Below are positions 5,925 through 54,411 of a DNA stretch of 64,000 bases, one piece after another; within the stretch, counting starts at the first letter, position 1; every line of letters starts with the position of its first letter. Source of the stretch: Christensenella sp. UBA6880 (GTDB taxonomy: Bacteria; Bacillota; Clostridia; Christensenellales; CAG-917); contig DKCG01000026.1 of the NCBI GenBank assembly GCA_002449145.1, forward strand, positions 82,608-146,607, written 5' to 3'. The notes beneath the pieces are model-generated. The model searched no databases. It was not told the DNA's origin and saw only the letters and a program-made list of their open reading frames with translations. The translations under genes and the position numbers were made by a program.

Positions 5925-5978
5925 TAATTAATAATTAATAATGAATAATTAATAATTGCGGGCGGGACACCCGCACCC
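5925..5978 (+). repeat. repeat module A, copy 1 (AT-rich all-frame-stop tract plus GC hairpin)
   Basis: The sequence AATTAATAATTAATAATGAATAATTAATAATTGCGGGCGGGACACCCGCACCC recurs at 34943-34997 and in shorter form at 53953-53983. Confidence 0.8.
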
Positions 5979-6002: not shown

Positions 6003-6530
6003 ACTTATACACGGAATGTGCAAATTCGCAGACGGAACACGAGCCGCAAGGCGGCGAGCCTATGAGCGCCGAACTTTCGTCACGCACAAGCCCTTTTGCT
6101 TCAACCGCAACAAGTTGTAGTTGTTCGCCTTTGTGCTTTGCGTTCCTCGTCCCACACGCCAAAAACTACGCTTTCATCATATTACTCAAACATAAGTTCG
6201 CTTGTTTTTGACGTGCGGGAACCCTTGTGCGTGTAGTACAAGCGACTGCGCCGTCTGTTGGCCACTGCCTGGCGCACAAAGCGCAGTGGCATAATGAGTG
6301 AAATGTCCCTATCTATGTGAGTGCCGTAAGGAACACAGTGACGGAATAGCGATTGTTACGAAGTCAATCGCGTCCTGCCCCCTCTTGCGAACGATGTAAA
6401 GTTTTGCAGAGAACTGGCGCAAGTTTGAGCAATAGGGGAAAGCCCGAAGGGAAGGGGTGACGTGTAATTTTAGAGTTCACGCCGTCAAACTTTTGTAGAG
6501 GAAGAACATTCCCCGTGAGGAAGGGGGAAG
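6003..6530 (+). repeat. repeat module T1, expanded copy (two nested insertions plus a tail ending in GTGAGGAAGGGGGAAG)
   Basis: Near-identical to 48915-49165 over the shared blocks, and interrupted at about 6078-6234 and 6326-6377. The tail at 6465-6530 ends with the T2-type purine terminus. Confidence 0.85.
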
Positions 6531-24108: not shown

Positions 24109-26817
24109 ATGAAAAGATTTAGATTGTTGGTAGTGTTATCACTATGCATATTGATTTGTTGCATATTGTGTGCTTGCAGTCCTAGCGATTCCGATTATGA
24201 TGACAGTAGTGTACAAAAATATAGTGTAACTTGGAAAAACTACGACGGCACGGTTCTGGAAAAAGATAGTGAAGTGGTATATGGAACAGTACCCGAATAT
24301 AACGGCATAACACCGACCAAACCGTCGACGGAACGCTATTCATATGCCTTCAACGGTTGGACACCGACAATCGTTCCTGTTACGGAAGATGTTGTTTATA
24401 CAGCGCAATTTGCCGAAACTACGAACACATATAGCGTAATCTGGGAAAATTATGACGGCACAATTTTAGAAAAAGATAATGAAGTGGCGTACGGAGAAGT
24501 GCCCGAATATAACGGCATAACACCGACCAAGCCATCAACAGGGCGGTATTCATACTCGTTCAACGGTTGGACACCGACAATTGTTCCCGTTACAAAAAAT
24601 GTTGTTTATACGGCACAATTCAACGAATCGACAAATACATATAGTGTAATCTGGAAGAATTATGACGGTACAATTTTAGAAAAAGATAACGAAGTGGCGT
24701 ACGGGGAAGTGCCCGAATATAACGGCATAACACCGACCAAACCGTCGACGGAACGTTATTCTTATGCGTTCAACGGTTGGACTCCGACAATTGTTCCTGT
24801 TACGGAAGATGTCGTTTATACGGCGCAGTTCGCAGAAACGATAAATACATATAGCGTAATTTGGAAGAATTATGACGGCACGATATTAGAAACTGATAAT
24901 GAAGTAGAATATGGGCTAATGCCCGAATATAACGGTGCGATGCCGATTAAGGGCGATGACGATATTTTCCGATATTCATTTATTGGCTGGGATAAAGAGA
25001 TTGCTCCTGTTGTGTCTGATATAATATATATTGCTCAGTTTTCCAGTGCATATAAAGAAGATTTTATATTTGAAACGGTTGGCAACAAATGTTTTTTAAA
25101 GAAATATGTTGGGGTAAACGAAAGCGTCGTTATTCCAAGTACATATCAAAACCATCCGGTTGTTTCGATTTTGTCAAATGCATTTGACAAAAAAGCGTGT
25201 GTAAAATCATTATACGTTCCTACCAGCGTTATTGAAATTCAGAAAAATGCTTTGAGCGGTTGTACAAATATAGAGCGGTTGATTCTTCCTTTTGTAGGCG
25301 ACGGCGCAGATATAGGATTTATCGGATATGTATTTGGCGCTGCAAATTATGAAGAAAACGCACAATGCGTTCCTTATTCGCTGTCATCAATAAGAATATA
25401 CAATGCGAATATTATTGCAAGTAACGCATTTTACGGTTGCAAATATTTAGAATATGTGGAAATTTCGGACGATATTACAAGTATCGGTGATGGTTGTTTG
25501 GCAGGTTGCGCGTCTCTTTCTAAAATGCGCTTGCCATTTGTCGGCGAATCATATAATAGCAAGAATTCATTTGGATATATATTTGGAACAAATAATTATT
25601 CTAATTCTCAAATCGTTTCACAAAACGGACAAATATTTTATATTCCGAATAGCCTTTCAGAAGTTGAAATTACAGGTGGATGTATATTGACAGGAGCGTT
25701 TGAAAATTGTGCTATGATTCAAAAAATAAGCATTGAACAAGGTGTTTCTATAATCGAGGAAGAATCCTTTGCAAATTGCAATTCGCTAAGAGAGATTTAT
25801 GTCGATTCGGCTGTGGAAATAAAAGCGTATGCATTTGCCAAATTGTGCAACCTTGAAAAAATAAAAGTGCCTATTCAGGATTATTCGTATAGCGATTCAG
25901 AATATTTGTGGACGTTATATCACATAGGTAGAATGTTTAATAAGGAAGAATATGGCGGATGCGATGCTATTACACAATCAAGTAAAGGAAAAGGAATAGG
26001 CAGTAATGCAGGCGTAGGTTCCGGCGGCGGAGGAACTTATTATATACCGACATCGTTAAAAGAAATTGTTGTAGATTGTAAAAACGATATTTTGGGTTAT
26101 GGGGCGTTAAGCGGTATTGCAAACGTTGAATTTGTTATTAACAATTGCACGGGCATCGCAGAGTATTCGTTGTCTCGAACGAGCATCAAAACATTTATCA
26201 TTCCGAAAGGATTGACAGAAATTCCAGAAGGCGCATTCAGTGAATGCGAGTTGTTGGAAAGTATAGTCATTCCTTATGGAGTGACTACAATACAAAATAA
26301 CGCTTTTAGGGGATGTATTTCATTGAAAACAATTGTTGTCCCTAAAACGTTATCAGGAATAGGTGAGCTAAGTTTTAGTGGTTGTAAATCGTTAGAAAAT
26401 ATAGATTTTATCAGAAACTGCGCAGAAGAATTTGTTATCGGAAGAAATGCATTTATTGAATGTACTGGGTTAAAAAAGTTGATTATTCCGAGCAATGTTT
26501 GTTCGATATATTATGGTGCTTTTGGCAACTGTTCGGAAATAAGCTCTGTTACTTTTGAGGACGGTTCAACTTGCGCATATATCGGCGGAGCTGCTTTTCA
26601 CGATTGTACAAAACTTGAATATGTAGTTATTCCTTCAAGTGCATTGACATTGGGAGAAAGTGTGTTTTCTGGTGACACATCATTAATTATATATGCAGAA
26701 TTTAATGAAAAACCATCAAGATGGGGTAATTATTGGAATAAGGATAACAATGCGGTTTATTGGTTATCAGAATGGAAATACGACGAATCGGGTTTTCCTT
26801 GTCCCAATAATGATTAG
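24109..26817 (+). CDS. surface lipoprotein with four 70-aa Listeria-Bacteroides-type B repeats and BspA-type leucine-rich repeats
   Basis: Lipobox LCAC-S. Repeats have the form YSVxWxNYDGTxLE...NGWTP...VYTAQF. LRR_5-like units such as IPxGVTTIQNNAFRGCISLKTIVVP follow. Confidence 0.8.
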   Translation: MKRFRLLVVLSLCILICCILCACSPSDSDYDDSSVQKYSVTWKNYDGTVLEKDSEVVYGTVPEYNGITPTKPSTERYSYAFNGWTPTIVPVTEDVVYTAQFAETTNTYSVIWENYDGTILEKDNEVAYGEVPEYNGITPTKPSTGRYSYSFNGWTPTIVPVTKNVVYTAQFNESTNTYSVIWKNYDGTILEKDNEVAYGEVPEYNGITPTKPSTERYSYAFNGWTPTIVPVTEDVVYTAQFAETINTYSVIWKNYDGTILETDNEVEYGLMPEYNGAMPIKGDDDIFRYSFIGWDKEIAPVVSDIIYIAQFSSAYKEDFIFETVGNKCFLKKYVGVNESVVIPSTYQNHPVVSILSNAFDKKACVKSLYVPTSVIEIQKNALSGCTNIERLILPFVGDGADIGFIGYVFGAANYEENAQCVPYSLSSIRIYNANIIASNAFYGCKYLEYVEISDDITSIGDGCLAGCASLSKMRLPFVGESYNSKNSFGYIFGTNNYSNSQIVSQNGQIFYIPNSLSEVEITGGCILTGAFENCAMIQKISIEQGVSIIEEESFANCNSLREIYVDSAVEIKAYAFAKLCNLEKIKVPIQDYSYSDSEYLWTLYHIGRMFNKEEYGGCDAITQSSKGKGIGSNAGVGSGGGGTYYIPTSLKEIVVDCKNDILGYGALSGIANVEFVINNCTGIAEYSLSRTSIKTFIIPKGLTEIPEGAFSECELLESIVIPYGVTTIQNNAFRGCISLKTIVVPKTLSGIGELSFSGCKSLENIDFIRNCAEEFVIGRNAFIECTGLKKLIIPSNVCSIYYGAFGNCSEISSVTFEDGSTCAYIGGAAFHDCTKLEYVVIPSSALTLGESVFSGDTSLIIYAEFNEKPSRWGNYWNKDNNAVYWLSEWKYDESGFPCPNND
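24220..25059 (+). repeat. in-frame 210-bp tandem repeat x4 inside the lipoprotein gene
   Basis: Units lie at 24220, 24430, 24640 and 24850. Units 1 and 3 are nearly identical at the protein level, and unit 4 has diverged. Confidence 0.85.
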
Positions 26818-28028: not shown

Positions 28029-28264
28029 CACTACTAACCGCGCAAGCCCTCTTTACTCTCAAAATAAGACGGACAAAAACTCAAACCGCAATTCCGTGCG
28101 AGTGCTTGCTTGGTGGGTGCGCACTTCGTGCGCAAGCGGTAAATTTGAACGGCGGTTGGGCGCGACGCGTCAAACAATACATTCGGTGAATGTGTTGTAG
28201 CCAAAGCGAACGAGGCGGATTGCCTCGCAAACGCCGAAGTCCAAACACGTGAGGAAAGGGGAAG
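28029..28264 (+). repeat. repeat module T2, copy 1
   Basis: Aligns with 37726-37958 and 54056-54292. The 3' ~125 nt are nearly identical, and it ends GTGAGGAAAGGGGAAG. Confidence 0.85.
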
Positions 28265-28302
28265 CTTTTCTTAAAAAATATACAAACTACAACGATACGA
28301 AA

Positions 28303-33426: not shown

Positions 33427-34965
33427 ATGAGAGAAGATTCAACAAAACTTAAACGCGCATTTTCCTTTGCGCAAGAGGGTATACGCAAATTTGCGTACAC
33501 CGATTTGTATATTTTGCTCGTTCTTGCAATAGTCGTGGCGGCGTGGATTTGGCAAAACGCAACGTTCGGTTTTGTCACGCTCATTCTCGTATCGTGTGCC
33601 GTTTTGGTGTTCTCGGACGATATTTTGCCGCTTTCGGTCAACGCTTTCGGCGCAATGCTTATGATTTTCAAAGCCGATGGCGAAGGTGCTATTGACATAA
33701 GCAGATTCTTTTATCTTTGGCCGACATTCATTCCGCTTGCCGTCGCAATTTTGATTTTCGTGGTCAGAAACACCGTCGCAAAAGTCAAAAACAAGCAGCG
33801 TTTCGTGCTCGGAAAGATGTTCTTTCCGCAAGTCGCGGTCAGCGCCGCGCTCTTGCTCGGCGGCGTGGGAACTATCGCGGCAAAGAATTATCTCACCGCG
33901 CTTCCCAACGTCATTGCGCTCGGCGTAGGCGTGCTTGCCGTGTATCTGCTCTTTGCAAACTTCATAAAAATCGACGAAAAAAGAGACTATGCAAAGTACT
34001 TTGCAAAGGTCGTTATGTGGATAGGCTTTGCCGTGTGCGTCGAAATGATTGTGCATATATCCCGCCTCGACATCAGTTCGCAAGACTGGTCTAAATGGTA
34101 CTGGGATTTAGGGTGGGGCAACCGCAACAATATCGCAACGTTCCTGCTCTTTTCCGCGCCTATGGCGATGTATTTGTCGACGAGGACGAGAAAAGGCTGG
34201 GCATACATCGTTATGGCGTTGTTCCAATACGCTTGCCTCGTTATGACCTTGTCGAGAGGCGGCATACTGTTCGGCGCGATTGCGGCGGTATTCGGCGTAG
34301 TTTTCTCGATTTTGAAAGCACCCAACCGCAAAACGCAAGCAACGATATGGGGCGTTGCAATCCTTGCCGCGCTTGTGATTTGCCTCGTAAAACTCGACCT
34401 CGTCAAAGGCATTATTTCGAGCCTTGCTGACAGAATAGACGCAGGCGGAAACGGCGACGTAACGTCGGGCAGATTCGCTCTTTACAAAGAGGCGTGGGAA
34501 CAGTTCGTAAAGCACCCGATTTTCGGCGCGGGTATGGGCTTTATCGGCACTCGCGACGGTCAGTTCCATTCGGAAAATATGAGCCAGTACTGGTTCCACT
34601 CGACGCTTTTCCAAGTGCTCGGCTGTATGGGTATCGTCGGTATAGCCGCTTACGTTTACTACTACGTCGTCCGCTTCGGAATCGTGTTCAAGGGTATGAA
34701 AAAGAATTGCAAATTCGCCTTTTTCGTGTTCGTTGCGTGGCTTGGATTCGAGGGCTATTCTATGATAGACACCGGTACTATGATTCCGTTCCCGAATATG
34801 ATGTTGGTTGCGGTTATGTCCTATATAGCGCAACTTGCCAACTTGCAAAGAAGCGAGAGCGAAATCGACGGCGTTCCGAACTCTCTACTCAACGAGGTAT
34901 ACGTGCGAGATACCGGAATCGACGTAGTGAGAGTTGATGCTAAATTAATAATTAATAATGAATAA
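33427..34965 (+). CDS. O-antigen ligase/polymerase (Wzy_C) family membrane protein
   Basis: Polytopic protein. The LSRGGILFGAIAA loop region and the periplasmic-type loop with FHSENMSQYWFHS are typical of this family. The last codons lie inside repeat module A. Confidence 0.75.
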   Translation: MREDSTKLKRAFSFAQEGIRKFAYTDLYILLVLAIVVAAWIWQNATFGFVTLILVSCAVLVFSDDILPLSVNAFGAMLMIFKADGEGAIDISRFFYLWPTFIPLAVAILIFVVRNTVAKVKNKQRFVLGKMFFPQVAVSAALLLGGVGTIAAKNYLTALPNVIALGVGVLAVYLLFANFIKIDEKRDYAKYFAKVVMWIGFAVCVEMIVHISRLDISSQDWSKWYWDLGWGNRNNIATFLLFSAPMAMYLSTRTRKGWAYIVMALFQYACLVMTLSRGGILFGAIAAVFGVVFSILKAPNRKTQATIWGVAILAALVICLVKLDLVKGIISSLADRIDAGGNGDVTSGRFALYKEAWEQFVKHPIFGAGMGFIGTRDGQFHSENMSQYWFHSTLFQVLGCMGIVGIAAYVYYYVVRFGIVFKGMKKNCKFAFFVFVAWLGFEGYSMIDTGTMIPFPNMMLVAVMSYIAQLANLQRSESEIDGVPNSLLNEVYVRDTGIDVVRVDAKLIINNE

Positions 34966-34997
34966 TTAATAATTGCGGGTGGGGTAAACCCCACACC
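34943..34997 (+). repeat. repeat module A, copy 2
   Basis: The sequence is AATTAATAATTAATAATGAATAATTAATAATTGCGGGTGGGGTAAACCCCACACC. It supplies the C-terminal ...LIINNE and the stop of the upstream CDS. Confidence 0.8.
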
Positions 34998-37677: not shown

Positions 37678-37958
37678 AAACGAAAACTTTTTGGCGATTG
37701 ATAACAACCGCACTTGTTTTCGCAAGCACTAACCGCGCAGAGAATTTGAGCTATCAGTTCAAGCACGGATAAGAACTCAAACCGCAATTTCGCCAAATTA
37801 TCTGCTTGGTGCAGCGCACTTCGTGCGAAAGCGGTAAATTTGAACGGCGGTAGGGCGCGACGCGTTAAACAACACATCCAGTGAATGTGTTGTAGCCAAA
37901 GCGAACGAGGCGGATTGCCTTGCAAACGCCGAAGTCCAAACACGTGAGGAAGGGGGAA
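37569..37958 (+). repeat. composite repeat: T1 5' fragment, hairpin block (GTCATTCCGAGCGAAGCGTGGGAATC) and T2 copy 2 (37726-37958)
   Basis: 37570-37600 matches the T1 5' block, and 37726-37958 aligns with the other T2 copies. Confidence 0.85.
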
Positions 37959-37971
37959 ATGTGTTAAGTTC

Positions 37972-43310: not shown

Positions 43311-43570
43311 ACTTATAAACGGAATGTGCTAATTCGCAGACGGAACGCGAGCCGCAAGGCGGCGAGGAAGCGAGCGTCGAGCTTGACGGATAGTACAAGT
43401 GAACGGGCGAGTGTGGATTTTTTCGCCCGTGAACGAGTGGCATAACAAGAGAACGATACTTTTCTATGCGAGCACCGAGTGTTGCCCCACGCAGAGCGGA
43501 CGCCGTGGGTTCCCTCAAAGTATGCAGAGGGGGAACGGCGGTAGGGGAAACACGTGAGGAAGGGGGAAAG
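43311..43570 (+). repeat. repeat module T1, diverged copy ending in the T2-type terminus
   Basis: It shares ACTTATAAACGGAATGTGC..GCAGACGGAAC.CGAGCCGCAAGGCGGCGAG and GAGAACGATACTTTTCTATG with the other T1 copies, and ends CACGTGAGGAAGGGGGAAAG. Confidence 0.8.
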
Positions 43571-46086: not shown

Positions 46087-48903
46087 ATGAGTATCGACAA
46101 AATTTACATCAAAGGCGCGAGGGAAAACAACCTCAAAAACATCGACCTAGAAATACCGCGCGACAAACTCGTCGTGTTCACGGGATTGAGCGGAAGCGGC
46201 AAATCGTCGCTTGCGTTCGACACCATTTTTGCGGAAGGACAAAGACGTTACGTCGAAAGCCTTTCCAGTTACGCGCGTATGTTCCTCGGTCAAATGCAAA
46301 AACCCGACGTGGACTACATCGAAGGTCTTTCCCCCGCCGTTTCAATCGACCAAAAAACGACCTCGCACAACCCTCGCTCGACCGTGGGTACGGTGACGGA
46401 AATTTACGACTATTTTCGCTTGCTGTTTGCAAGAATCGGCACGCCGCATTGCCCCAAGTGCGGACGTGAAATCGAACGTCAAACGGTTGACCAAATCTGC
46501 GACAAGATTATGGAAAGAGAGGGCTCAAAACTTCAACTTCTCGCACCCGTCGTGAGAGGTAGAAAGGGCGAGTACCGCAAGGAACTCGAACAATTCAAGC
46601 GCGCGGGCTACGTCCGCGTAAGGGTGGACGGGGTGAACTACACCCTCGACGAGGAAATAAAACTCGACAAAAACGTCAAGCACAACATAAGCGTGGTTAT
46701 CGACAGAATCGTGGTTAAGGACGGTTCGCAACGCCGCATATCCGATGCAATCGAAAACGCGATAAAACTGTCCGAAGGGCTTGTGATTGCCGACTTCGAC
46801 GGCGAAGAAGTGCTTTATTCCACGAAGTACGCTTGCCCCGATTGCGATTTGAGTTTCGAGGAACTCACGCCGAGGTTGTTCTCGTTCAACAATCCGTACG
46901 GCGCGTGTCCCGAATGCGGCGGACTCGGATTCCGCAACGAAATCGACGTAAATCTGCTCGTCACCGACTGGAACAAATCCCTCAGAGAGGGCGCGATAAA
47001 GGTAAGCGGCTGGGACGCGGGACATATGTCGCAAATGCAGTTCAGGGCGCTTTCGCAAGCGTACGGATTTTCTCTCGATACGCCGATTAAAGACTTGCCG
47101 CAAAATATCCTCGACATCATCTTTTACGGCAACGACGGCGACCGTATTCCTATGGAATACAACTCGCGCACGTTCAGTGGTTTCTACAAGGCGAGTTACG
47201 AGGGCGTTGCGAGAAACCTTATGCGCCGATTCAACGAAACGGACAGCGAACTCATAAAGAACGAGATTTCCAAGTATATGAAAGAAGTGCCTTGCTCCAA
47301 GTGCGGCGGAAAGAGGCTCAAACCCGAAGCCCTCGCAGTCACGATTGCGGGCAAGAATATATACGAACTCACCGAGATGTCCATATCGAAACTCAAAGAC
47401 TTTATGCAGTCTCTTACGCTCACCGACACGCAACATCTTATTGCGGACAGAATTATCAAAGAGATTTGCGCAAGGCTCGACTTTTTGATTAACGTAGGAC
47501 TGGATTATCTAACTCTTTCGCGTTCGGCAACCACTTTGAGCGGCGGCGAGTCGCAACGAATCCGCCTTGCAACCCAAATCGGAAGCGGACTTACGGGCGT
47601 TTTGTACATTCTCGACGAGCCGAGCATAGGCTTGCACCAAAAGGATAATCAACGCCTTTTGCAATCCCTCAAAAATTTGCGCGATATAGGCAACACTCTC
47701 ATCGTCGTCGAACACGACGAGGAAACCATACGCAGTGCGGATTATATCGTCGATATAGGCCCGGGCGCGGGCGTACACGGCGGCAACGTCGTTGCGCGCG
47801 GTAGCGTCGAGGACGTCATAAAGAGCAAGGACAGCATAACGGGCAAGTATCTGAGCGGCGAACTCTCGATACCCGTTCCCATTGCAAGACGCTCGTCAAA
47901 CGGCAAGTCAATCGTCATAAAGGGCGCAAGACAAAACAACCTCAAAAACGTTGACGTCGAGATTCCGCTCGGCGTATTCAACTGCGTAACGGGCGTGTCG
48001 GGCAGCGGCAAATCCTCGCTCGTCAACGAAGTGCTTTATCCCGCGCTTTCAAACGCGCTTATGCGCTCGAACGTCAAACAAGGCAACTACGACAGTATCG
48101 AGGGCATCGAAAACGTGGACAAGGTCATTTGCATAGACCAAAGCCCGATAGGCAAAACGCCTCGCTCGAACCCCGCAACGTATACGGGCGTTTTCGGCGA
48201 TATTAGGGAACTGTTCGCAACCCTTCCCGATTCCAAAGCGAGAGGCTACACCGCGGGCAGATTTTCCTTCAACGTCAACGGCGGCAGATGCGAGCATTGC
48301 GGCGGCGACGGCATAATCAAAATCGAAATGCACTTCCTTCCCGACGTGTACGTTCCTTGCGAAGTCTGCAAGGGTGCAAGATACAACCGCGAAACCCTCG
48401 AAGTGCGCTACAAAGGCAAAAATATCAGCGACGTGCTCGATATGACAATCGAGGAAGCCACCGAGTTCTTTGCCAACATACCCAAAATCAAAAACAAAAT
48501 CAAAACCCTCAACGACGTCGGTCTCGGCTACGTCAAACTCGGTCAGTCCTCAACCACTTTGAGCGGCGGCGAAGCGCAACGCGTCAAACTCGCAACCGAA
48601 CTTTCTCGCCGTTCCACCGGCAAAACCGTCTATATCCTCGACGAACCGACGACCGGACTTCACACCCACGACGTTGCCAAACTCATCACCATTCTCGACC
48701 GTCTCGTCGAGCAAGGCAACACCGTCGTCGTTATCGAGCATAATCTCGACGTCGTCAAAGTTGCCGACAACATCATCGACCTCGGACCCGACGGCGGCGA
48801 CCGCGGCGGAACGATAGTCGCGCAAGGAACACCGGAAGAGGTTGCACTTGTGGCTCGTTCATACACCGGTCAATTCCTTAAAACCGTGCTATTTGGCGAA
48901 TAA
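46087..48903 (+). CDS. uvrA: excinuclease ABC subunit A
   Basis: [23 protein letters not shown], two ABC modules ([16 protein letters not shown]) and zinc-finger cysteines. Confidence 0.95.
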
Positions 48904-49165
48904 CTGCGTCAATAAATGTGCGTATTAGCAGACGGAACACGAGCCGCAAGGCGGCGAGCCTATGAGCGCCGAACTTGACGGACAGTACAAGCGACTGCGC
49001 CGTCTGTTGGCCACTGCCTGGCGCACAAAGCGCAGTGGCATAATGAGAGAACGATACTTTTCTATGTGAGTGCCGACTTCCCCTCTTGCGAACGATGTGC
49101 AATATTGTAGAAAATTGGCGTAGGTTTGAGCAATAGGGGAAAGCCCGAAGGGAAGGGGTGATGTG
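48888..49165 (+). repeat. 17-mer left block (48888-48904, containing the uvrA stop) plus compact repeat module T1 (48915-49165)
   Basis: GCTATTTGGCGAATAAC is identical to 20864-20880. The T1 body is near-identical to the shared blocks of 6003-6464. Confidence 0.85.
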
Positions 49166-49229
49166 TTTTTTTTGGGTACACGATGAACACTCGTGTATAA
49201 AAAGAAACGAATATGAAGAGGGTAACTCT

Positions 49230-50069
49230 ATGATAAAACTTGTAGACTTCTTGAATATCGAAGATTGCGACTTGGCAAAGTATAAAATCCATTTCGCTAT
49301 CGGAACAAAAGATAAAAACGAACCCTATCAAATCTTCTTGACGGGCGGTTTCGACGAGTGGCAAAGCATACAAACCAACAAGAATTTCAATTTGGATTAT
49401 GTCGTTTCTCTCGTCTATTACAAGAAAAATATTTGGATGTTTGCGGGCGTATTCAAAGTAAACGGCGAACCGTGCGAAATAGAGTATAAAGGCAAGCGAC
49501 ATTGGAAGTATGCTTTGGAAAAAACCGACGTTCAAAGCGATATGATAGGCAAGTGCTTTTTCGAGTACAAGAAAGAATTTCGCGCGTCCTATCCGACAAT
49601 GACGTTAAAGCCGAAAAACGGCGCAGCGTTGAGCGATATTCAAATTGCTTTTATAAACGAAAAGCGCGCGACGATAAACGATTTCGACGGTTTCGACAAA
49701 ATCAATATTCCGTATTCGACATTAAAATATATCGTTGACAACAACTTGCCGTCTTGGAAAACCGCTCTTTCAAACGTGAAAGGCGTGTACATAATCGTCG
49801 ATACCAAAAACGGAAAACAATATGTCGGAAGCGCATACGGCAACGAGTGCATTTGGCAACGCTGGCAAGCGTATGCAAAAACGGGACACGGCGGAAACGC
49901 CGAACTGAAAAAGATTCTCGAACAGCACGGCGAGGATTACAAAAACAATTTCAAATATTCGATTTTGGAAGTGTGCAACTTAAATCTCGGCAACGATTAC
50001 GTCATAGCGCGAGAGTCGTACTGGAAAGAAGTTTTGATGACAAGAGAGTACGGATTAAACAAAAACTAA
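49230..50069 (+). CDS. GIY-YIG nuclease-domain protein with an uncharacterised ~190-aa N-terminal domain
   Basis: The C-terminal KGVYIIVDTKNGKQYVGSAYG...RWQAY...NFKYSILEV...RESYWKEVL fits GIY-YIG (GIY, YIG, Arg, Glu positions). GAAGAGGG is the SD before the ATG at 49230. The gene is visibly AT-rich. Confidence 0.75.
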   Translation: MIKLVDFLNIEDCDLAKYKIHFAIGTKDKNEPYQIFLTGGFDEWQSIQTNKNFNLDYVVSLVYYKKNIWMFAGVFKVNGEPCEIEYKGKRHWKYALEKTDVQSDMIGKCFFEYKKEFRASYPTMTLKPKNGAALSDIQIAFINEKRATINDFDGFDKINIPYSTLKYIVDNNLPSWKTALSNVKGVYIIVDTKNGKQYVGSAYGNECIWQRWQAYAKTGHGGNAELKKILEQHGEDYKNNFKYSILEVCNLNLGNDYVIARESYWKEVLMTREYGLNKN

Positions 50070-50074
50070 TAAAT

Positions 50075-50108
50075 AAAAAATCGAGCAATGCGCTCGATTT
50101 TTTTGTTC
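50075..50108. terminator. bidirectional terminator
   Basis: A-run, stem TCGAGC (50081-50086) paired with GCTCGA (50092-50097), then a T-run. Confidence 0.65.
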
Positions 50109-50120
50109 GTTTTTTATTGG

Positions 50121-50933
50121 TTATTTCTCGATTCCGAATGAGTTTTTGAGCATAAAGCGGATTAATGATTCGACGGAAGGGATTTCGCGAGCGGACGTTT
50201 GCACGAATCCGTACATCGCAAGAGTGGTGTCGCACACGTACGAGATTGAGGGCGTTTCGTCCAAGCAACTCTTTGCGGTTTGTGTGAGTATATCGCCGAA
50301 AAGGGCGGTTGTGACGACAACGTCGAGCGAGGTCGGATTCGAGATTATCGCGTCTACGGTTGCCGAAACGTCTTGCATATCCACCGACACGAAAGGATAA
50401 TCTTCGTTGACGTCGGCAACGATTTTGCGCCACAGTTTGGAAGTGGTGAGTTTGTCCGCTTTGTCGGCAAGCGTAAGCGTGCGGCGAGAGTCGTTTGCAA
50501 GTTCGTACGCAACGCGTGCGGTGCGCTCGATTTCAAGTTCGCTGTACCTTTCGACGTCGTATGCTTCGCGACCGAAAGCGGCGTTGTTGGCAAAGCCTTT
50601 TTCGCCCTCGTATATTCCGCCGTTTTTGTCTTGAACGATACAAAAACCGTGGTTTACGTCGTCGTTTCGACGTGAAAAAGCCGTGATTTGCGCATATAAG
50701 CCGAGTTGTTTGCGTACGGAATCGACGGCGAGTTCTTCTTGCTTATTGCTTGCAAAAAACAAGATTGCGTTTGCCGATTTCGCCTTTTCGATTACGTTTT
50801 CGTCGGACAAATTCATCGTTTGAAAATCAAACTTGACGTACTCGTTTTCGTATGCGGAAACGGTCTTTTTCGCTTTCTCGAAAAAGTCGGTTGCAAAGTC
50901 GTTGTTCGTGTTTATCAAAAGTATGTCGTTCAT
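50121..50933 (-). CDS. isocitrate/isopropylmalate dehydrogenase-family protein, short divergent form
   Basis: The central and C-terminal regions parallel LeuB/Icd (..IVQDKNGGIYEGE.., ..ADKADKLTTSKLWRK.., ..TTALFGDILTQ..). The N-terminal GDGIGPE-type loop is absent, and the protein is only 270 aa. Confidence 0.6.
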   Translation of the reverse strand: MNDILLINTNNDFATDFFEKAKKTVSAYENEYVKFDFQTMNLSDENVIEKAKSANAILFFASNKQEELAVDSVRKQLGLYAQITAFSRRNDDVNHGFCIVQDKNGGIYEGEKGFANNAAFGREAYDVERYSELEIERTARVAYELANDSRRTLTLADKADKLTTSKLWRKIVADVNEDYPFVSVDMQDVSATVDAIISNPTSLDVVVTTALFGDILTQTAKSCLDETPSISYVCDTTLAMYGFVQTSAREIPSVESLIRFMLKNSFGIEK

Positions 50934-53914: not shown

Positions 53915-53947
53915 AAAAATCCTCGCAAACTTGCGAGGATTTTTTTT
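53913..53947 (+). terminator. rho-independent terminator of the ABC operon
   Basis: Stem TCCTCGCAA / TTGCGAGGA followed by TTTTTTTT. Confidence 0.75.
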
Positions 53948-53952
53948 CAGTG

Positions 53953-54292
53953 AATTAATAATTAATAATTTAGGGCGGGGCACAAGCAAAAATCATCGCA
54001 GAGGTGATGACAATGCACATAAATGTGAATTGTCAAAACCTCGCTTGATTTATTGCTCTACTAACCGCGCAGAGAATTTGTGCTATCAATTCAAGTACGG
54101 ATAAAAACTCACGCCACAATTTCGCCAAATTATCTGCTTGGTAAAAGCGTGCTATGCACGCAAGCGGTAAATTTGAACGGCGGTTGGGCGCGACGCGTTA
54201 AACAACACATTCGGTGAATGTGTTGTAGCCAAAGCGAACGAGGCGGATTGCCTCGCAAACGCCGAAGTCCAAACACGTGAGGAAGGGGGAAG
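53953..54292 (+). repeat. repeat module A (short copy, 53953-53983), spacer, and repeat module T2 copy 3 (54056-54292)
   Basis: AATTAATAATTAATAATTTAGGGCGGGGCAC, then a T2 body aligning with 28029-28264 and 37726-37958. Confidence 0.85.
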
Positions 54293-54411
54293 TTTTATTT
54301 AAGATTTTAGTTAGAATGCAAACTTTAAGGCAAAGATATAAGACTTTACAAATATTTATAAAAATGTTAATATATAATATCATAAAATAATTGTGGGCGC
54401 GCGTTGCGCAT

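What the first reader, a model, noticed from the sequence alone, without database searches (positions are those of the whole stretch)
49166..50110. Lone AT-rich GIY-YIG nuclease gene inserted between uvrA and a terminator, directly downstream of a T1 repeat
The gene at 49230-50069 encodes an ~190-aa N-terminal domain I cannot assign, followed by a C-terminal GIY-YIG nuclease domain. Its codon usage is visibly more AT-rich than the flanking uvrA and dehydrogenase-like genes (judged by eye, not computed), which suggests horizontal acquisition. It is bounded by repeat T1 (48915-49165) on one side and a strong bidirectional terminator (50075-50108) on the other. An in-frame ATG at 49161 sits right after the T1 purine block, so the repeat might also supply an alternative start. 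Candidate roles are a free-standing homing endonuclease, a single-gene anti-phage nuclease, or a nuclease linked to the repeat family.
Basis: partly seen in the sequence, partly recalled or inferred. Interest (0 to 1): 0.6.

Follow-up and report, generated by a model that had tools for sequence, protein, structure and literature searches.

The report
Uzume-type single-gene anti-phage nuclease (UzuA)
The lone AT-rich gene after uvrA belongs to UzuA, the one-protein "Uzume" anti-phage defence family, so it is an ordinary new member of a known kind whose mechanism is still unknown.

Summary
The gene at 49230-50069 (+) is real and encodes 279 aa. It matches the PADLOC UzuA model (Uzume, Millman et al. 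2022) end to end, with E = 2e-63. The N-terminal domain on its own matches the same profile region as the N-domains of the two UzuA proteins tested in that study.

The C-terminal domain is an I-TevI-like GIY-YIG nuclease with its Tyr, Tyr, Glu and Asn catalytic residues intact. The N-terminal ~150 aa model with high confidence but match no Pfam family, no PDB chain and no BFVD model.

Total GC is low (0.41; window ORF mean 0.49, z = -2.8). GC3 is nearly native (z = -1.2).

The gene is not a recent insertion:
- It sits at the same uvrA 3' flank in every sampled relative down to ~95% UvrA identity.
- It co-diverges with its flanks and is under purifying selection (dN/dS about 0.11).

The T1 repeat is real but unrelated to the gene. 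It is missing from the same spacer in close relatives and from all other UzuA loci. The upstream in-frame ATG is not the start. The bidirectional terminator is confirmed.

Verdict: a new member of a known defence family, of low to moderate interest.

The parts
49230..50069 (+). uzuA gene, 279 aa plus stop codon; the whole Uzume-type system
   Evidence: ORF. PADLOC PDLC03973 UzuA E = 2.3e-63, residues 2-279 against profile 3-278 of 278. phrog_26160 E = 3.6e-51. AF2 model with mean pLDDT 96.6. dN/dS 0.11-0.12 against orthologues.
49230..49679 (+). N-terminal domain (about residues 1-150), UzuA-specific, fold unassigned; presumed sensor or DNA-recognition module (inferred)
   Evidence: Alone it matches PDLC03973 positions 3-126 with E = 3.4e-9. 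The N-domains of Millman's tested UzuA proteins SG175 and SG174 match the same profile region. No Pfam family. No PDB sequence hit. No Foldseek hit in PDB or BFVD. The domain-only model has pLDDT 92.9. Conserved residues are K19, H21, A23, W69, F71, G73, G107 and R118.
49680..49778 (+). Conserved linker (about residues 151-183), motif F-(P/D)-G-(Y/F)...L(K)xI...W..ALS, with two helices leading into the nuclease domain
   Evidence: This segment is shared with the verified UzuA SG175 by BLASTP (the alignment starts at residue 152) and by hhalign. F152, L165, W176 and L180 are conserved. Helices at 162-170 and 174-181.
49779..50066 (+). C-terminal GIY-YIG nuclease domain (residues 184-279), I-TevI-like
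   Evidence: Pfam PF01541. Family profile against PDB 1ln0 (I-TevI catalytic domain) E = 5.6e-13. Foldseek 1mk0/1ln0 E = 8e-5, target TM 0.72. The residue alignment gives G185-V-Y187 for GIY, Y198-V-G200 for YIG, R261-E262 for R74-E75, and N277 for N90. Y187, G200, E262 and N277 are invariant in 101 homologues.
49215..49222 (+). Shine-Dalgarno-like GAAGAGGG, 7 nt upstream of ATG 49230
   Evidence: Read from the sequence. The sister-species orthologue also has a purine-rich GGGGGA just before its MIKL start.
50075..50103 (.). Bidirectional intrinsic terminator shared by the convergent uzuA and Iso_dh-like genes
   Evidence: The terminator scan finds it on both strands, with 12-13 pairs followed by T-runs.
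48915..49205 (+). T1 repeat copy. It is adjacent to the system but not part of it. In this strain lineage it has replaced the native uvrA-uzuA spacer.
   Evidence: Three copies in the window. Absent from the orthologous spacer in L100, L101, L097 and L102-105. Long and short forms occur among same-species strains. No Rfam family.
49158..49229 (+). In-frame upstream extension (GTG 49158, ATG 49161); judged non-coding
   Evidence: Homologues of 278-281 aa align from residue 1. The sister orthologue has no upstream extension. The region lies inside or next to T1 and is not conserved in relatives.

Best explanation
The gene encodes a UzuA protein, the sole component of the Uzume anti-phage defence system. 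It is a two-module enzyme. A C-terminal I-TevI-like GIY-YIG nuclease cuts DNA. It is joined through a conserved helical linker to a family-specific N-terminal domain of about 150 aa.

My inference is that the N-terminal domain recognises the target or trigger and so restricts or activates the nuclease. The trigger could be a feature of phage DNA or a phage-induced state. No methyltransferase or partner gene is conserved beside the gene, so self-DNA cannot be spared by methylation as in a type II R-M system. It must be spared through target specificity or auto-inhibition.

Shown here: family membership of both domains, intact catalytic residues, purifying selection, single-gene organisation, and mobility of the family across plasmids, phage-plasmids and varied chromosomal sites.

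Inferred here: anti-phage activity of this particular protein, DNA as its substrate, and the sensor role of the N-domain.

In this lineage of uncultured gut Clostridia the gene is a long-term resident of the uvrA 3' flank, not a recent insertion.
For: - PADLOC UzuA PDLC03973 matches at full length with E = 2.3e-63.
- The N-domain alone matches with E = 3.4e-9, in the same profile region as the N-domains of Millman's SG175 (marked verified) and SG174 (sequences and labels from supplement file 11 of 10.1101/2022.05.11.491447).
- BLASTP gives 36% identity to SG175 over residues 152-279 (E = 7e-24) and 29% to SG174 over residues 17-279 (E = 2e-31).
- The GIY-YIG domain matches I-TevI by sequence profile (E = 5.6e-13) and by fold, and the catalytic Tyr, Tyr, Glu and Asn are invariant.
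- The ~280-aa two-domain architecture is conserved in about 160 clusters at 50% identity with E <= 1e-30.
- Homologues occur in 430 plasmid records, in Klebsiella phage-plasmids and in 9 IMG/VR contigs.
- One homologue lies beside a Fic-domain gene and a strain-variable cluster containing a DEAD-helicase gene and an IS21 fragment.
- dN/dS is 0.11-0.12 and dS is similar to that of the flanking genes.
- There is no adjacent methyltransferase or conserved partner gene.
- Papers list Uzume as a GIY-YIG single-gene system of unknown mechanism.
Against: - No experiment exists on this protein.
- It resembles the tested-but-not-protective SG174 more than the verified SG175. Its N-domain is linked to SG175's only through the family profile, not by BLASTP or hhalign.
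- The locus is not a defence island; its neighbours are uvrA and an Iso_dh-like gene.
- The gene is fixed at one site in every sampled relative, which is unusual for a defence gene.
- No consensus sigma-70 promoter was found upstream.
- The conserved Arg (R211) aligns with I-TevI R30 rather than the catalytic R27.
- The N-domain has no structural relative, so its sensor role is conjecture.
Confidence: 0.75

Rival explanations
1. It is a free-standing GIY-YIG homing endonuclease, a selfish gene that cuts alleles lacking it and copies itself into the uvrA 3' flank.
For: The catalytic domain is closest to I-TevI. There are weak hits to PADLOC HEase (E = 7e-8), TIGR01453 group I intron endonuclease (E = 3e-8) and the homing-endonuclease families phrog_314 and phrog_7168. 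It is a lone intergenic gene next to a highly conserved gene. A second, distant UzuA subtype sits downstream of uvrA in L013.
Against: - The TIGR01453 score of 33.9 bits is below the 56.05 cutoff.
- The domain order is the reverse of I-TevI and Seg proteins, and no NUMOD or HTH DNA-binding module is present.
- No empty site was seen. Every sampled relative from 100% down to ~94% UvrA identity carries the gene.
- dS matches the flanks, which indicates vertical descent.
- Homologues sit in unrelated contexts rather than at one cognate site.
Confidence: 0.08
2. It is a lineage-specific DNA-repair accessory nuclease that works with UvrA and UvrB, a Cho/UvrC-like GIY-YIG incision enzyme, and that is why it stays next to uvrBA.
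For: uvrB-uvrA-uzuA synteny is stable across relatives with 94-100% UvrA identity. A distant UzuA subtype also lies downstream of uvrA in L013, whose UvrA is 75% identical. GC3 is nearly native. The gene is under purifying selection. UvrC and Cho use a GIY-YIG domain (established knowledge).
Against: - The domain is I-TevI-like, not UvrC-like (E = 5.6e-13 against 0.028 for 1yd6).
- No UvrC-type UVR, RNase H-like or HhH domains are present.
- Outside this clade, none of the long UzuA-bearing metagenome or viral loci had UvrA nearby.
- Family members sit on plasmids and phage-plasmids.
- L014-L018, other relatives with 68-73% UvrA identity, lack the gene.
Confidence: 0.07
3. It is a modification-dependent (type IV-like) restriction enzyme in the manner of CMoRE/PD-T4-3, with the N-domain reading modified bases in phage DNA. 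This is a specific sub-mechanism of the defence reading.
For: It is a single-protein GIY-YIG defence enzyme with no methyltransferase nearby. There is a precedent: PD-T4-3/CMoRE is a GIY-YIG enzyme that cleaves 5hmC and 5ghmC DNA (PMC12923530). 9u75_A appears as a weak match to the GIY-YIG domain (probability 0.69).
Against: - The CMoRE-defining GIYxY motif is absent (the sequence is G-V-Y-I-I).
- The domain order is reversed.
- There is no PADLOC PD-T4-3 hit.
- The N-domain shows no similarity to SRA, EVE, YTH or other reader folds in the libraries available.
Confidence: 0.1
4. It is a nuclease functionally tied to the T1 repeat family, for example one that mobilises or processes T1.
For: A T1 copy lies immediately upstream of the gene.
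Against: - Orthologues in L100, L101, L097 and L102-105 lack T1 in the spacer.
- The T1 core was found in none of the loci fetched from other organisms.
- The two other T1 copies in the window have no such gene beside them.
- T1 is polymorphic between strains whose UzuA proteins are 100% identical.
Confidence: 0.02

Closest known systems
Uzume defence system, UzuA (Millman et al. 2022; PADLOC PDLC03973; verified representative SG175 from Bacillus sp. FJAT-27231)
   Same: Size of about 280 aa. Single-gene organisation. The same N-domain profile region, conserved linker and C-terminal GIY-YIG domain. Full-length HMM match.
   Different: Pairwise similarity to the verified protein covers only the C-terminal 128 residues (36% identity). 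The N-domain is very divergent and closer to the SG174 type, which did not protect in that screen. The host is an uncultured gut Clostridia lineage. The gene lies on the chromosome beside uvrA, not on a plasmid or in a defence island.
I-TevI catalytic domain (PDB 1LN0, 1MK0) and Seg-type GIY-YIG homing endonucleases
   Same: GIY-YIG fold and catalytic residues. It is the best solved-structure match.
   Different: In UzuA the nuclease domain is C-terminal. There is no zinc finger, NUMOD or HTH DNA-binding module. The gene is not intron- or phage-embedded, and no presence/absence polymorphism is seen at its site.
CMoRE / PD-T4-3 (GIY-YIG type IV restriction enzyme, PDB 9U75; PMC12923530)
   Same: A single-polypeptide defence enzyme that combines a GIY-YIG nuclease with a separate sensing domain, without a methyltransferase.
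   Different: Opposite domain order. No GIYxY motif. No PADLOC PD-T4-3 hit. The sensing domain is not detectably related.
GIY-YIG type II restriction endonucleases (Eco29kI, Cfr42I, Hpy188I; from my own knowledge)
   Same: They use a GIY-YIG domain for defence against foreign DNA.
   Different: Those enzymes have a cognate methyltransferase gene next to them. None is present here.

Membership tests
Uzume / UzuA | Full-length match to the UzuA family HMM | tested here: met
   PDLC03973 E = 2.3e-63, 212 bits, residues 2-279 against profile 3-278 of 278. The two UzuA proteins tested by Millman et al. hit the same model with E = 1e-76 and 2e-73.
Uzume / UzuA | UzuA-type N-terminal domain, not just any GIY-YIG protein | tested here: met
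   Residues 1-147 alone match PDLC03973 positions 3-126 with E = 3.4e-9. The SG175 and SG174 N-domains match positions 3-143 with E about 6e-21. Caveat: BLASTP and hhalign against the SG175 N-domain detect nothing before residue 149.
Uzume / UzuA | C-terminal GIY-YIG nuclease domain with catalytic residues intact | tested here: met
   Pfam PF01541. Y187, Y198, E262 and N277 are conserved. The identity of the catalytic Arg is uncertain, because R211 aligns to I-TevI R30.
Uzume / UzuA | Single-gene system with no conserved partner gene | tested here: met
   Neighbouring genes differ completely between homologues: uvrA and Iso_dh here, a methyltransferase and DUF308 in L093, Fic and DegV in L189.
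Uzume / UzuA | Confers resistance to phage infection | not testable with these tools
   Only SG175 is marked as verified in the source study. Nothing is known for this orthologue.
GIY-YIG homing endonucleases (I-TevI / Seg; TIGR01453) | Score above the curated family cutoff | tested here: not met
   TIGR01453 scores 33.9 bits against a cutoff of 56.05, covering the catalytic domain only. Pfam SegE_GIY-YIG scores 17.4 against 25.
GIY-YIG homing endonucleases (I-TevI / Seg; TIGR01453) | N-terminal catalytic domain followed by a C-terminal DNA-binding module | tested here: not met
   The catalytic domain spans residues 184-279. Residues 1-178 match no DNA-binding family.
GIY-YIG homing endonucleases (I-TevI / Seg; TIGR01453) | Presence/absence polymorphism at the insertion site (homing) | tested here: not met
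   Every contig long enough to show the site carries the gene, across relatives with 100%, 98-99% and ~94-95% UvrA identity. Sampling is limited to metagenome contigs.
CMoRE / PD-T4-3 | GIYxY-YIG motif, and an N-terminal nuclease followed by a C-terminal sensor | tested here: not met
   The motif here is G-V-Y-I-I. The domain order is reversed. There is no PADLOC PD-T4-3 hit.
Type II GIY-YIG restriction-modification | Adjacent cognate DNA methyltransferase | tested here: not met
   The flanking genes are uvrA and an Iso_dh-like gene.
UvrC / Cho | UvrC-type GIY-YIG domain together with UVR, RNase H-like and HhH domains | tested here: not met
   Only a marginal profile hit to UvrC 1yd6 (E = 0.028) against 5.6e-13 for I-TevI. 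No other Pfam domains.

The most novel reading that the evidence does not exclude
Two things remain open. First, the UzuA N-terminal domain may be a new sensor fold. Second, this lineage keeps a UzuA gene at the uvrA 3' flank in the same orientation as uvrBA, and L013 carries a second, very different UzuA subtype at that flank. This could reflect a functional or regulatory coupling between Uzume and the UvrAB damage-recognition machinery, for example read-through or DNA-damage-linked expression, or UvrAB-assisted target recognition. The alternative is chance or an integration hotspot.
Probability: 0.07. Interest if true: 0.6.

Novelty: new member of a known kind. Interest (0 to 1): 0.25.

Why it matters
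The finding explains an odd-looking AT-rich orphan gene as a standard hit that a defence-system annotator would report. That removes it from the list of unknowns.

Its modest value lies elsewhere. Uzume has no known mechanism. This locus supplies a well-behaved orthologue series from gut Clostridia with a high-confidence structure model (pLDDT 96.6). It shows that the N-terminal domain has no solved structural relative. It also shows that a defence gene can be inherited vertically for a long time, under purifying selection, at a housekeeping locus. These are useful starting points for biochemical work on UzuA, but none of them is a surprise to a specialist.

Tried and rejected
- **N-domain, sequence searches.** Pfam on this protein and on 40 homologues, NCBIfam and PDB profile searches found nothing.
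- **N-domain, fold searches.** Foldseek against PDB with the full model and with the domain alone, and against BFVD, gave no hit with E < 0.05. The top rows had probability of 0.2 or less and TM below 0.2.
- **Rfam on T1.** Nothing reached the gathering thresholds across the window. Only chance-level hits appeared at E <= 10 in 48880-49240.
- **Promoter scan.** No sigma-70-like site lies upstream of uzuA on the + strand. My by-eye TTGGGT-18-TATAAA candidate fails the scan's criteria.
- **Locus search with the 101-sequence alignment.** It was too diverse for pattern search. I repeated it with a 25-sequence alignment.
- **Published Millman et al. 2022 paper.** It is not held. The preprint text does not name Uzume, but its supplement does. 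The phage spectrum of the verified system is only in figures that are not held.
- **Extra genes in other strains.** PADLOC and Pfam on the genes between uzuA and Iso_dh gave only a generic XRE HTH.
- **Rejected readings.** These are the T1-linked nuclease, the alternative start at 49161, recent horizontal insertion, and a CMoRE-type enzyme.
Full report
**Observation**

The region holds an ORF from ATG 49230 to the stop at 50067-50069, encoding 279 aa. It is flanked upstream by uvrA (46087-48903, +). Downstream lies a convergent, truncated isocitrate/isopropylmalate-dehydrogenase-like gene (50121-50933, -; Pfam Iso_dh).

Between the two convergent genes is an inverted repeat at 50075-50103 with T-runs on both strands. 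The scan calls it a terminator in both orientations.

GC falls to 0.38-0.42 across the gene, from about 0.52-0.57 in uvrA. Among 43 non-overlapping ORFs of 150 aa or more in the window, this ORF has the second-lowest GC: 0.406 against a mean of 0.492 (sd 0.031, z = -2.8). Its GC3 is 0.523 against a mean of 0.593 (sd 0.060, z = -1.2). The AT-richness is therefore real. It reflects a K/N/I/Y/F-rich protein more than foreign synonymous codon usage.

The T1 repeat is also real. A 31-nt core occurs three times on the + strand, at 6028, 43336 and 48928, with none expected by chance.

**What the protein is**

PADLOC's UzuA model PDLC03973 matches from residue 2 to 279, covering profile positions 3-278 of 278, with E = 2.3e-63. 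The only strong PHROG hit is phrog_26160, of unknown function (E = 3.6e-51). Pfam sees only GIY-YIG at residues 184-269.

UzuA is the single protein of the Uzume system from Millman et al. 2022. Later papers list Uzume among single-gene GIY-YIG systems of unknown mechanism.

The preprint's supplementary table gives the two UzuA proteins that were tested:
- SG175, from Bacillus sp. FJAT-27231, 280 aa, marked "v" and "verified".
- SG174, from B. cereus B4080, 286 aa, marked "x".

The window protein compares with them as follows:
- Against SG174, BLASTP aligns residues 17-279 at 29% identity (E = 2e-31).
- Against SG175, BLASTP aligns only residues 152-279 at 36% identity (E = 7e-24).
- A profile of the N-domain aligned by hhalign to the SG175 N-terminus finds only the linker.
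- The window N-domain alone (residues 1-147) still hits PDLC03973 positions 3-126 with E = 3.4e-9. Both tested N-domains hit the same part of the profile, positions 3-143, with E about 6e-21.

Both domains therefore belong to the family. The N-domain is, however, a divergent version of the one in the verified protein.

**Structure**

AlphaFold2 with a 101-sequence alignment gives mean pLDDT 96.6 and pTM 0.83.

The C-terminal domain superposes on the I-TevI catalytic domain (1mk0/1ln0; Foldseek E = 8e-5; target TM 0.72). The family profile finds I-TevI in the PDB with E = 5.6e-13, far better than UvrC at 0.028.

The residue alignment maps the catalytic positions as follows:

| UzuA (this protein) | I-TevI |
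|---|---|
| G185-V-Y187 | G4-I-Y6 |
| Y198-V-G200 | Y17-V-G19 |
| R261-E262 | R74-E75 |
| N277 | N90 |

Y187, G200, E262 and N277 are invariant, and Y198 and R211 nearly invariant, in 101 homologues. One caveat applies. R211 aligns to I-TevI R30, one helical turn away from the catalytic R27, so the identity of the catalytic Arg is not settled.

**Start codon**

The ORF can be extended upstream to GTG 49158 or ATG 49161. Three points argue against that:
- Homologues of 278-281 aa align from residue 1.
- The sister-species orthologue has no upstream extension.
- The upstream sequence is unrelated in relatives that lack T1.

GAAGAGGG lies 7 nt before ATG 49230. ATG 49230 is the start.

**Comparative genomics**

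Contigs encoding the identical protein all show uvrB-uvrA-uzuA-Iso_dh-ABC transporter. So do contigs found through the identical Iso_dh and UvrA proteins. Several of those contigs simply break just after uvrA, where the T1 repeat begins in this strain.

Human-gut metagenome contigs from progressively more distant relatives keep the same synteny:

| Loci | UvrA identity | UzuA identity | Iso_dh identity |
|---|---|---|---|
| L100, L101 | 98-99% | 92-95% | 89-91% |
| L097, L102-L105 | 94-95% | 74% | 66-70% |

Against L100 and L101, uzuA has dS of 0.21-0.30, like its flanking genes (0.13-0.30), and dN/dS of 0.11-0.12. The gene has therefore co-diverged with its neighbours under purifying selection. 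It is not a recent insertion, and I found no empty site.

The nearest GTDB species representative is L013 (UvrA 75%). It carries a different UzuA-type gene of 294 aa, 35% identical to this one (PDLC03973 E = 1e-51), about 720 bp downstream of uvrA and on the same strand. L014-L018, with UvrA identities of 68-73%, have no UzuA within 6 kb.

Many homologues from other organisms are much closer to the window protein (57-69% identity) than the L013 copy is. One example is P0003, at 69%, which sits between a methyltransferase and a DUF308 gene. The L013 gene is therefore more likely an independent acquisition or a replacement than a vertical orthologue. This suggests the uvrA flank may be a preferred site, but it rests on two cases only.

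**Family distribution**

About 160 clusters at 50% identity match with E <= 1e-30, nearly all of them 265-295 aa and aligned end to end. tblastn finds full-length homologues in 430 plasmid records, including Klebsiella, Enterobacter, Bacillus, Lactiplantibacillus and Alteromonas. It also finds them in two Klebsiella phage-plasmids and in 9 IMG/VR contigs.

One homologue (P0022) sits beside a Fic-domain gene. Next to that is a gene cluster, including a DEAD-helicase gene, that is present in one strain and replaced by an IS21 fragment in another. That is a typical defence-island setting.

Outside the window's own clade, none of the long UzuA-bearing loci had UvrA nearby. In every host examined the gene is more AT-rich than its surroundings.

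**T1 is unrelated to the gene**

- The orthologous uvrA-uzuA spacer in L100, L101, L097 and L102-L105 is a different 160-200 bp sequence with no T1. In the window lineage T1 has replaced that spacer to within roughly 10-25 nt of the start codon.
- Same-species strains with 100% identical UzuA carry either a short or a long T1. The long form has an internal insertion of about 150 nt, like the copy at 6015-6481.
- The copy near 43.3 kb is missing in some relatives.
- The T1 core occurs in none of the loci fetched from other organisms.
- T1 has no Rfam match, and its + strand folds only moderately better than shuffled sequence (z = -2.25).

**Mechanism**

What is shown here:
- The protein is a two-domain UzuA with an intact I-TevI-type active site.
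- It has no partner gene and no methyltransferase.
- It is under purifying selection.

What is inferred:
- It cleaves DNA, because GIY-YIG enzymes are DNA endonucleases (established knowledge).
- The N-domain supplies target or trigger recognition and keeps the nuclease away from host DNA.

The nearest mechanistic precedent is CMoRE/PD-T4-3, a GIY-YIG enzyme with a separate sensor for modified cytosine (PMC12923530). The window protein fails CMoRE's defining features. It has no GIYxY motif, its domain order is reversed, and it gives no PADLOC hit to that family. The analogy is therefore one of logic, not of membership. The evidence cannot distinguish direct degradation of phage DNA from abortive infection.

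**Rivals**

- **Homing endonuclease.** The catalytic domain fits, but the architecture, the sub-threshold family scores and the absence of empty sites argue against it.
- **Nucleotide-excision-repair accessory nuclease.** The persistent uvrA adjacency and the near-native GC3 suggest it. Against it are the I-TevI-like rather than UvrC-like domain, the plasmid and phage distribution of the family, and the lack of uvrA linkage outside this clade.
- **T1-associated nuclease.** This is refuted by the comparative data.

**Verdict**

Its interpretation is partly right: the correct option was among its three proposals. Recent horizontal insertion, the T1 link and the alternative start are not supported.

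The gene is a new member of a known defence family, one that standard tools (PADLOC, DefenseFinder) would flag. Interest is low to moderate. The residual value lies in the uncharacterised N-domain and in the unusually stable, housekeeping-adjacent location of a defence gene.

Noticed in passing
window 6015-6481, 43323-43560, 48915-49205 (all + strand): The T1 intergenic repeat family has a conserved core, GCAGACGGAACRCGAGCCGCAAGGCGGCGAG. It varies between near-identical strains: long and short forms differ by an internal insertion of about 150 nt, and some sites have it in one strain and lack it in another. It has no Rfam match. Its + strand folds modestly better than shuffles (z = -2.25). Assemblies tend to break at it. 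It behaves like a small mobile element or a mobile structured RNA.
   Followed up: partly
L003 6846-7917, L005 6740-7811, L097 8880-9768, L098 2946-3836 (the site equivalent to window 50070-50120): The short gap between uzuA and the Iso_dh-like gene is a variable spot. Some same-species strains carry an XRE-type HTH gene plus two small, apparently related proteins (128 and 118 aa) with signal-peptide-like N-termini. The sister species carries an HTH gene or remnant plus a 170-aa protein. PADLOC and Pfam give only the generic HTH.
   Followed up: partly
L013 9546-10430: The nearest GTDB representative (UvrA 75% identical) has a different UzuA subtype (294 aa, 35% identity) downstream of uvrA on the same strand. 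This suggests the uvrA 3' flank may be a recurrent site for this gene family.
   Followed up: partly
window 24109-26817 (+), with tandem repeats at 24219-24935: This is the strongest compositional outlier in the window (GC 0.374, GC3 0.31). It encodes a 902-aa BspA-type leucine-rich-repeat protein (Pfam LRR_5, E = 7e-64) and contains 210-nt tandem repeats.
   Followed up: partly
window 28069-28274, 37764-37969, 54097-54302; also 5926-5966, 34943-34983, 53939-53979: Two further dispersed repeat families are present. One is a 206-nt family at 75-86% identity. The other is an AT-rich 41-nt element, AATTAATAATTAATAATGAATAATTAATAATTGCGGGCGGG. Two of the 41-nt copies lie just upstream of other repeats: the 5926 copy before T1 at 6015, and the 53939 copy before the 206-nt repeat at 54097.
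   Followed up: no
window 50121-50933 (-): The Iso_dh-like gene is short. Its 270 aa match only positions 57-250 of the 348-position Pfam profile. It evolves faster than its neighbours (dN/dS about 0.2; 68% identity where UvrA is 95%). It may be a degenerate or repurposed dehydrogenase.
   Followed up: no
L189 875-6841, L190 1445-3333: A 62%-identical UzuA homologue (P0022) lies next to a Fic-domain gene. Beside that, a four-gene cluster including a DEAD-helicase gene is present in one strain and replaced by an IS21 fragment in another. This looks like a small defence island.
   Followed up: no
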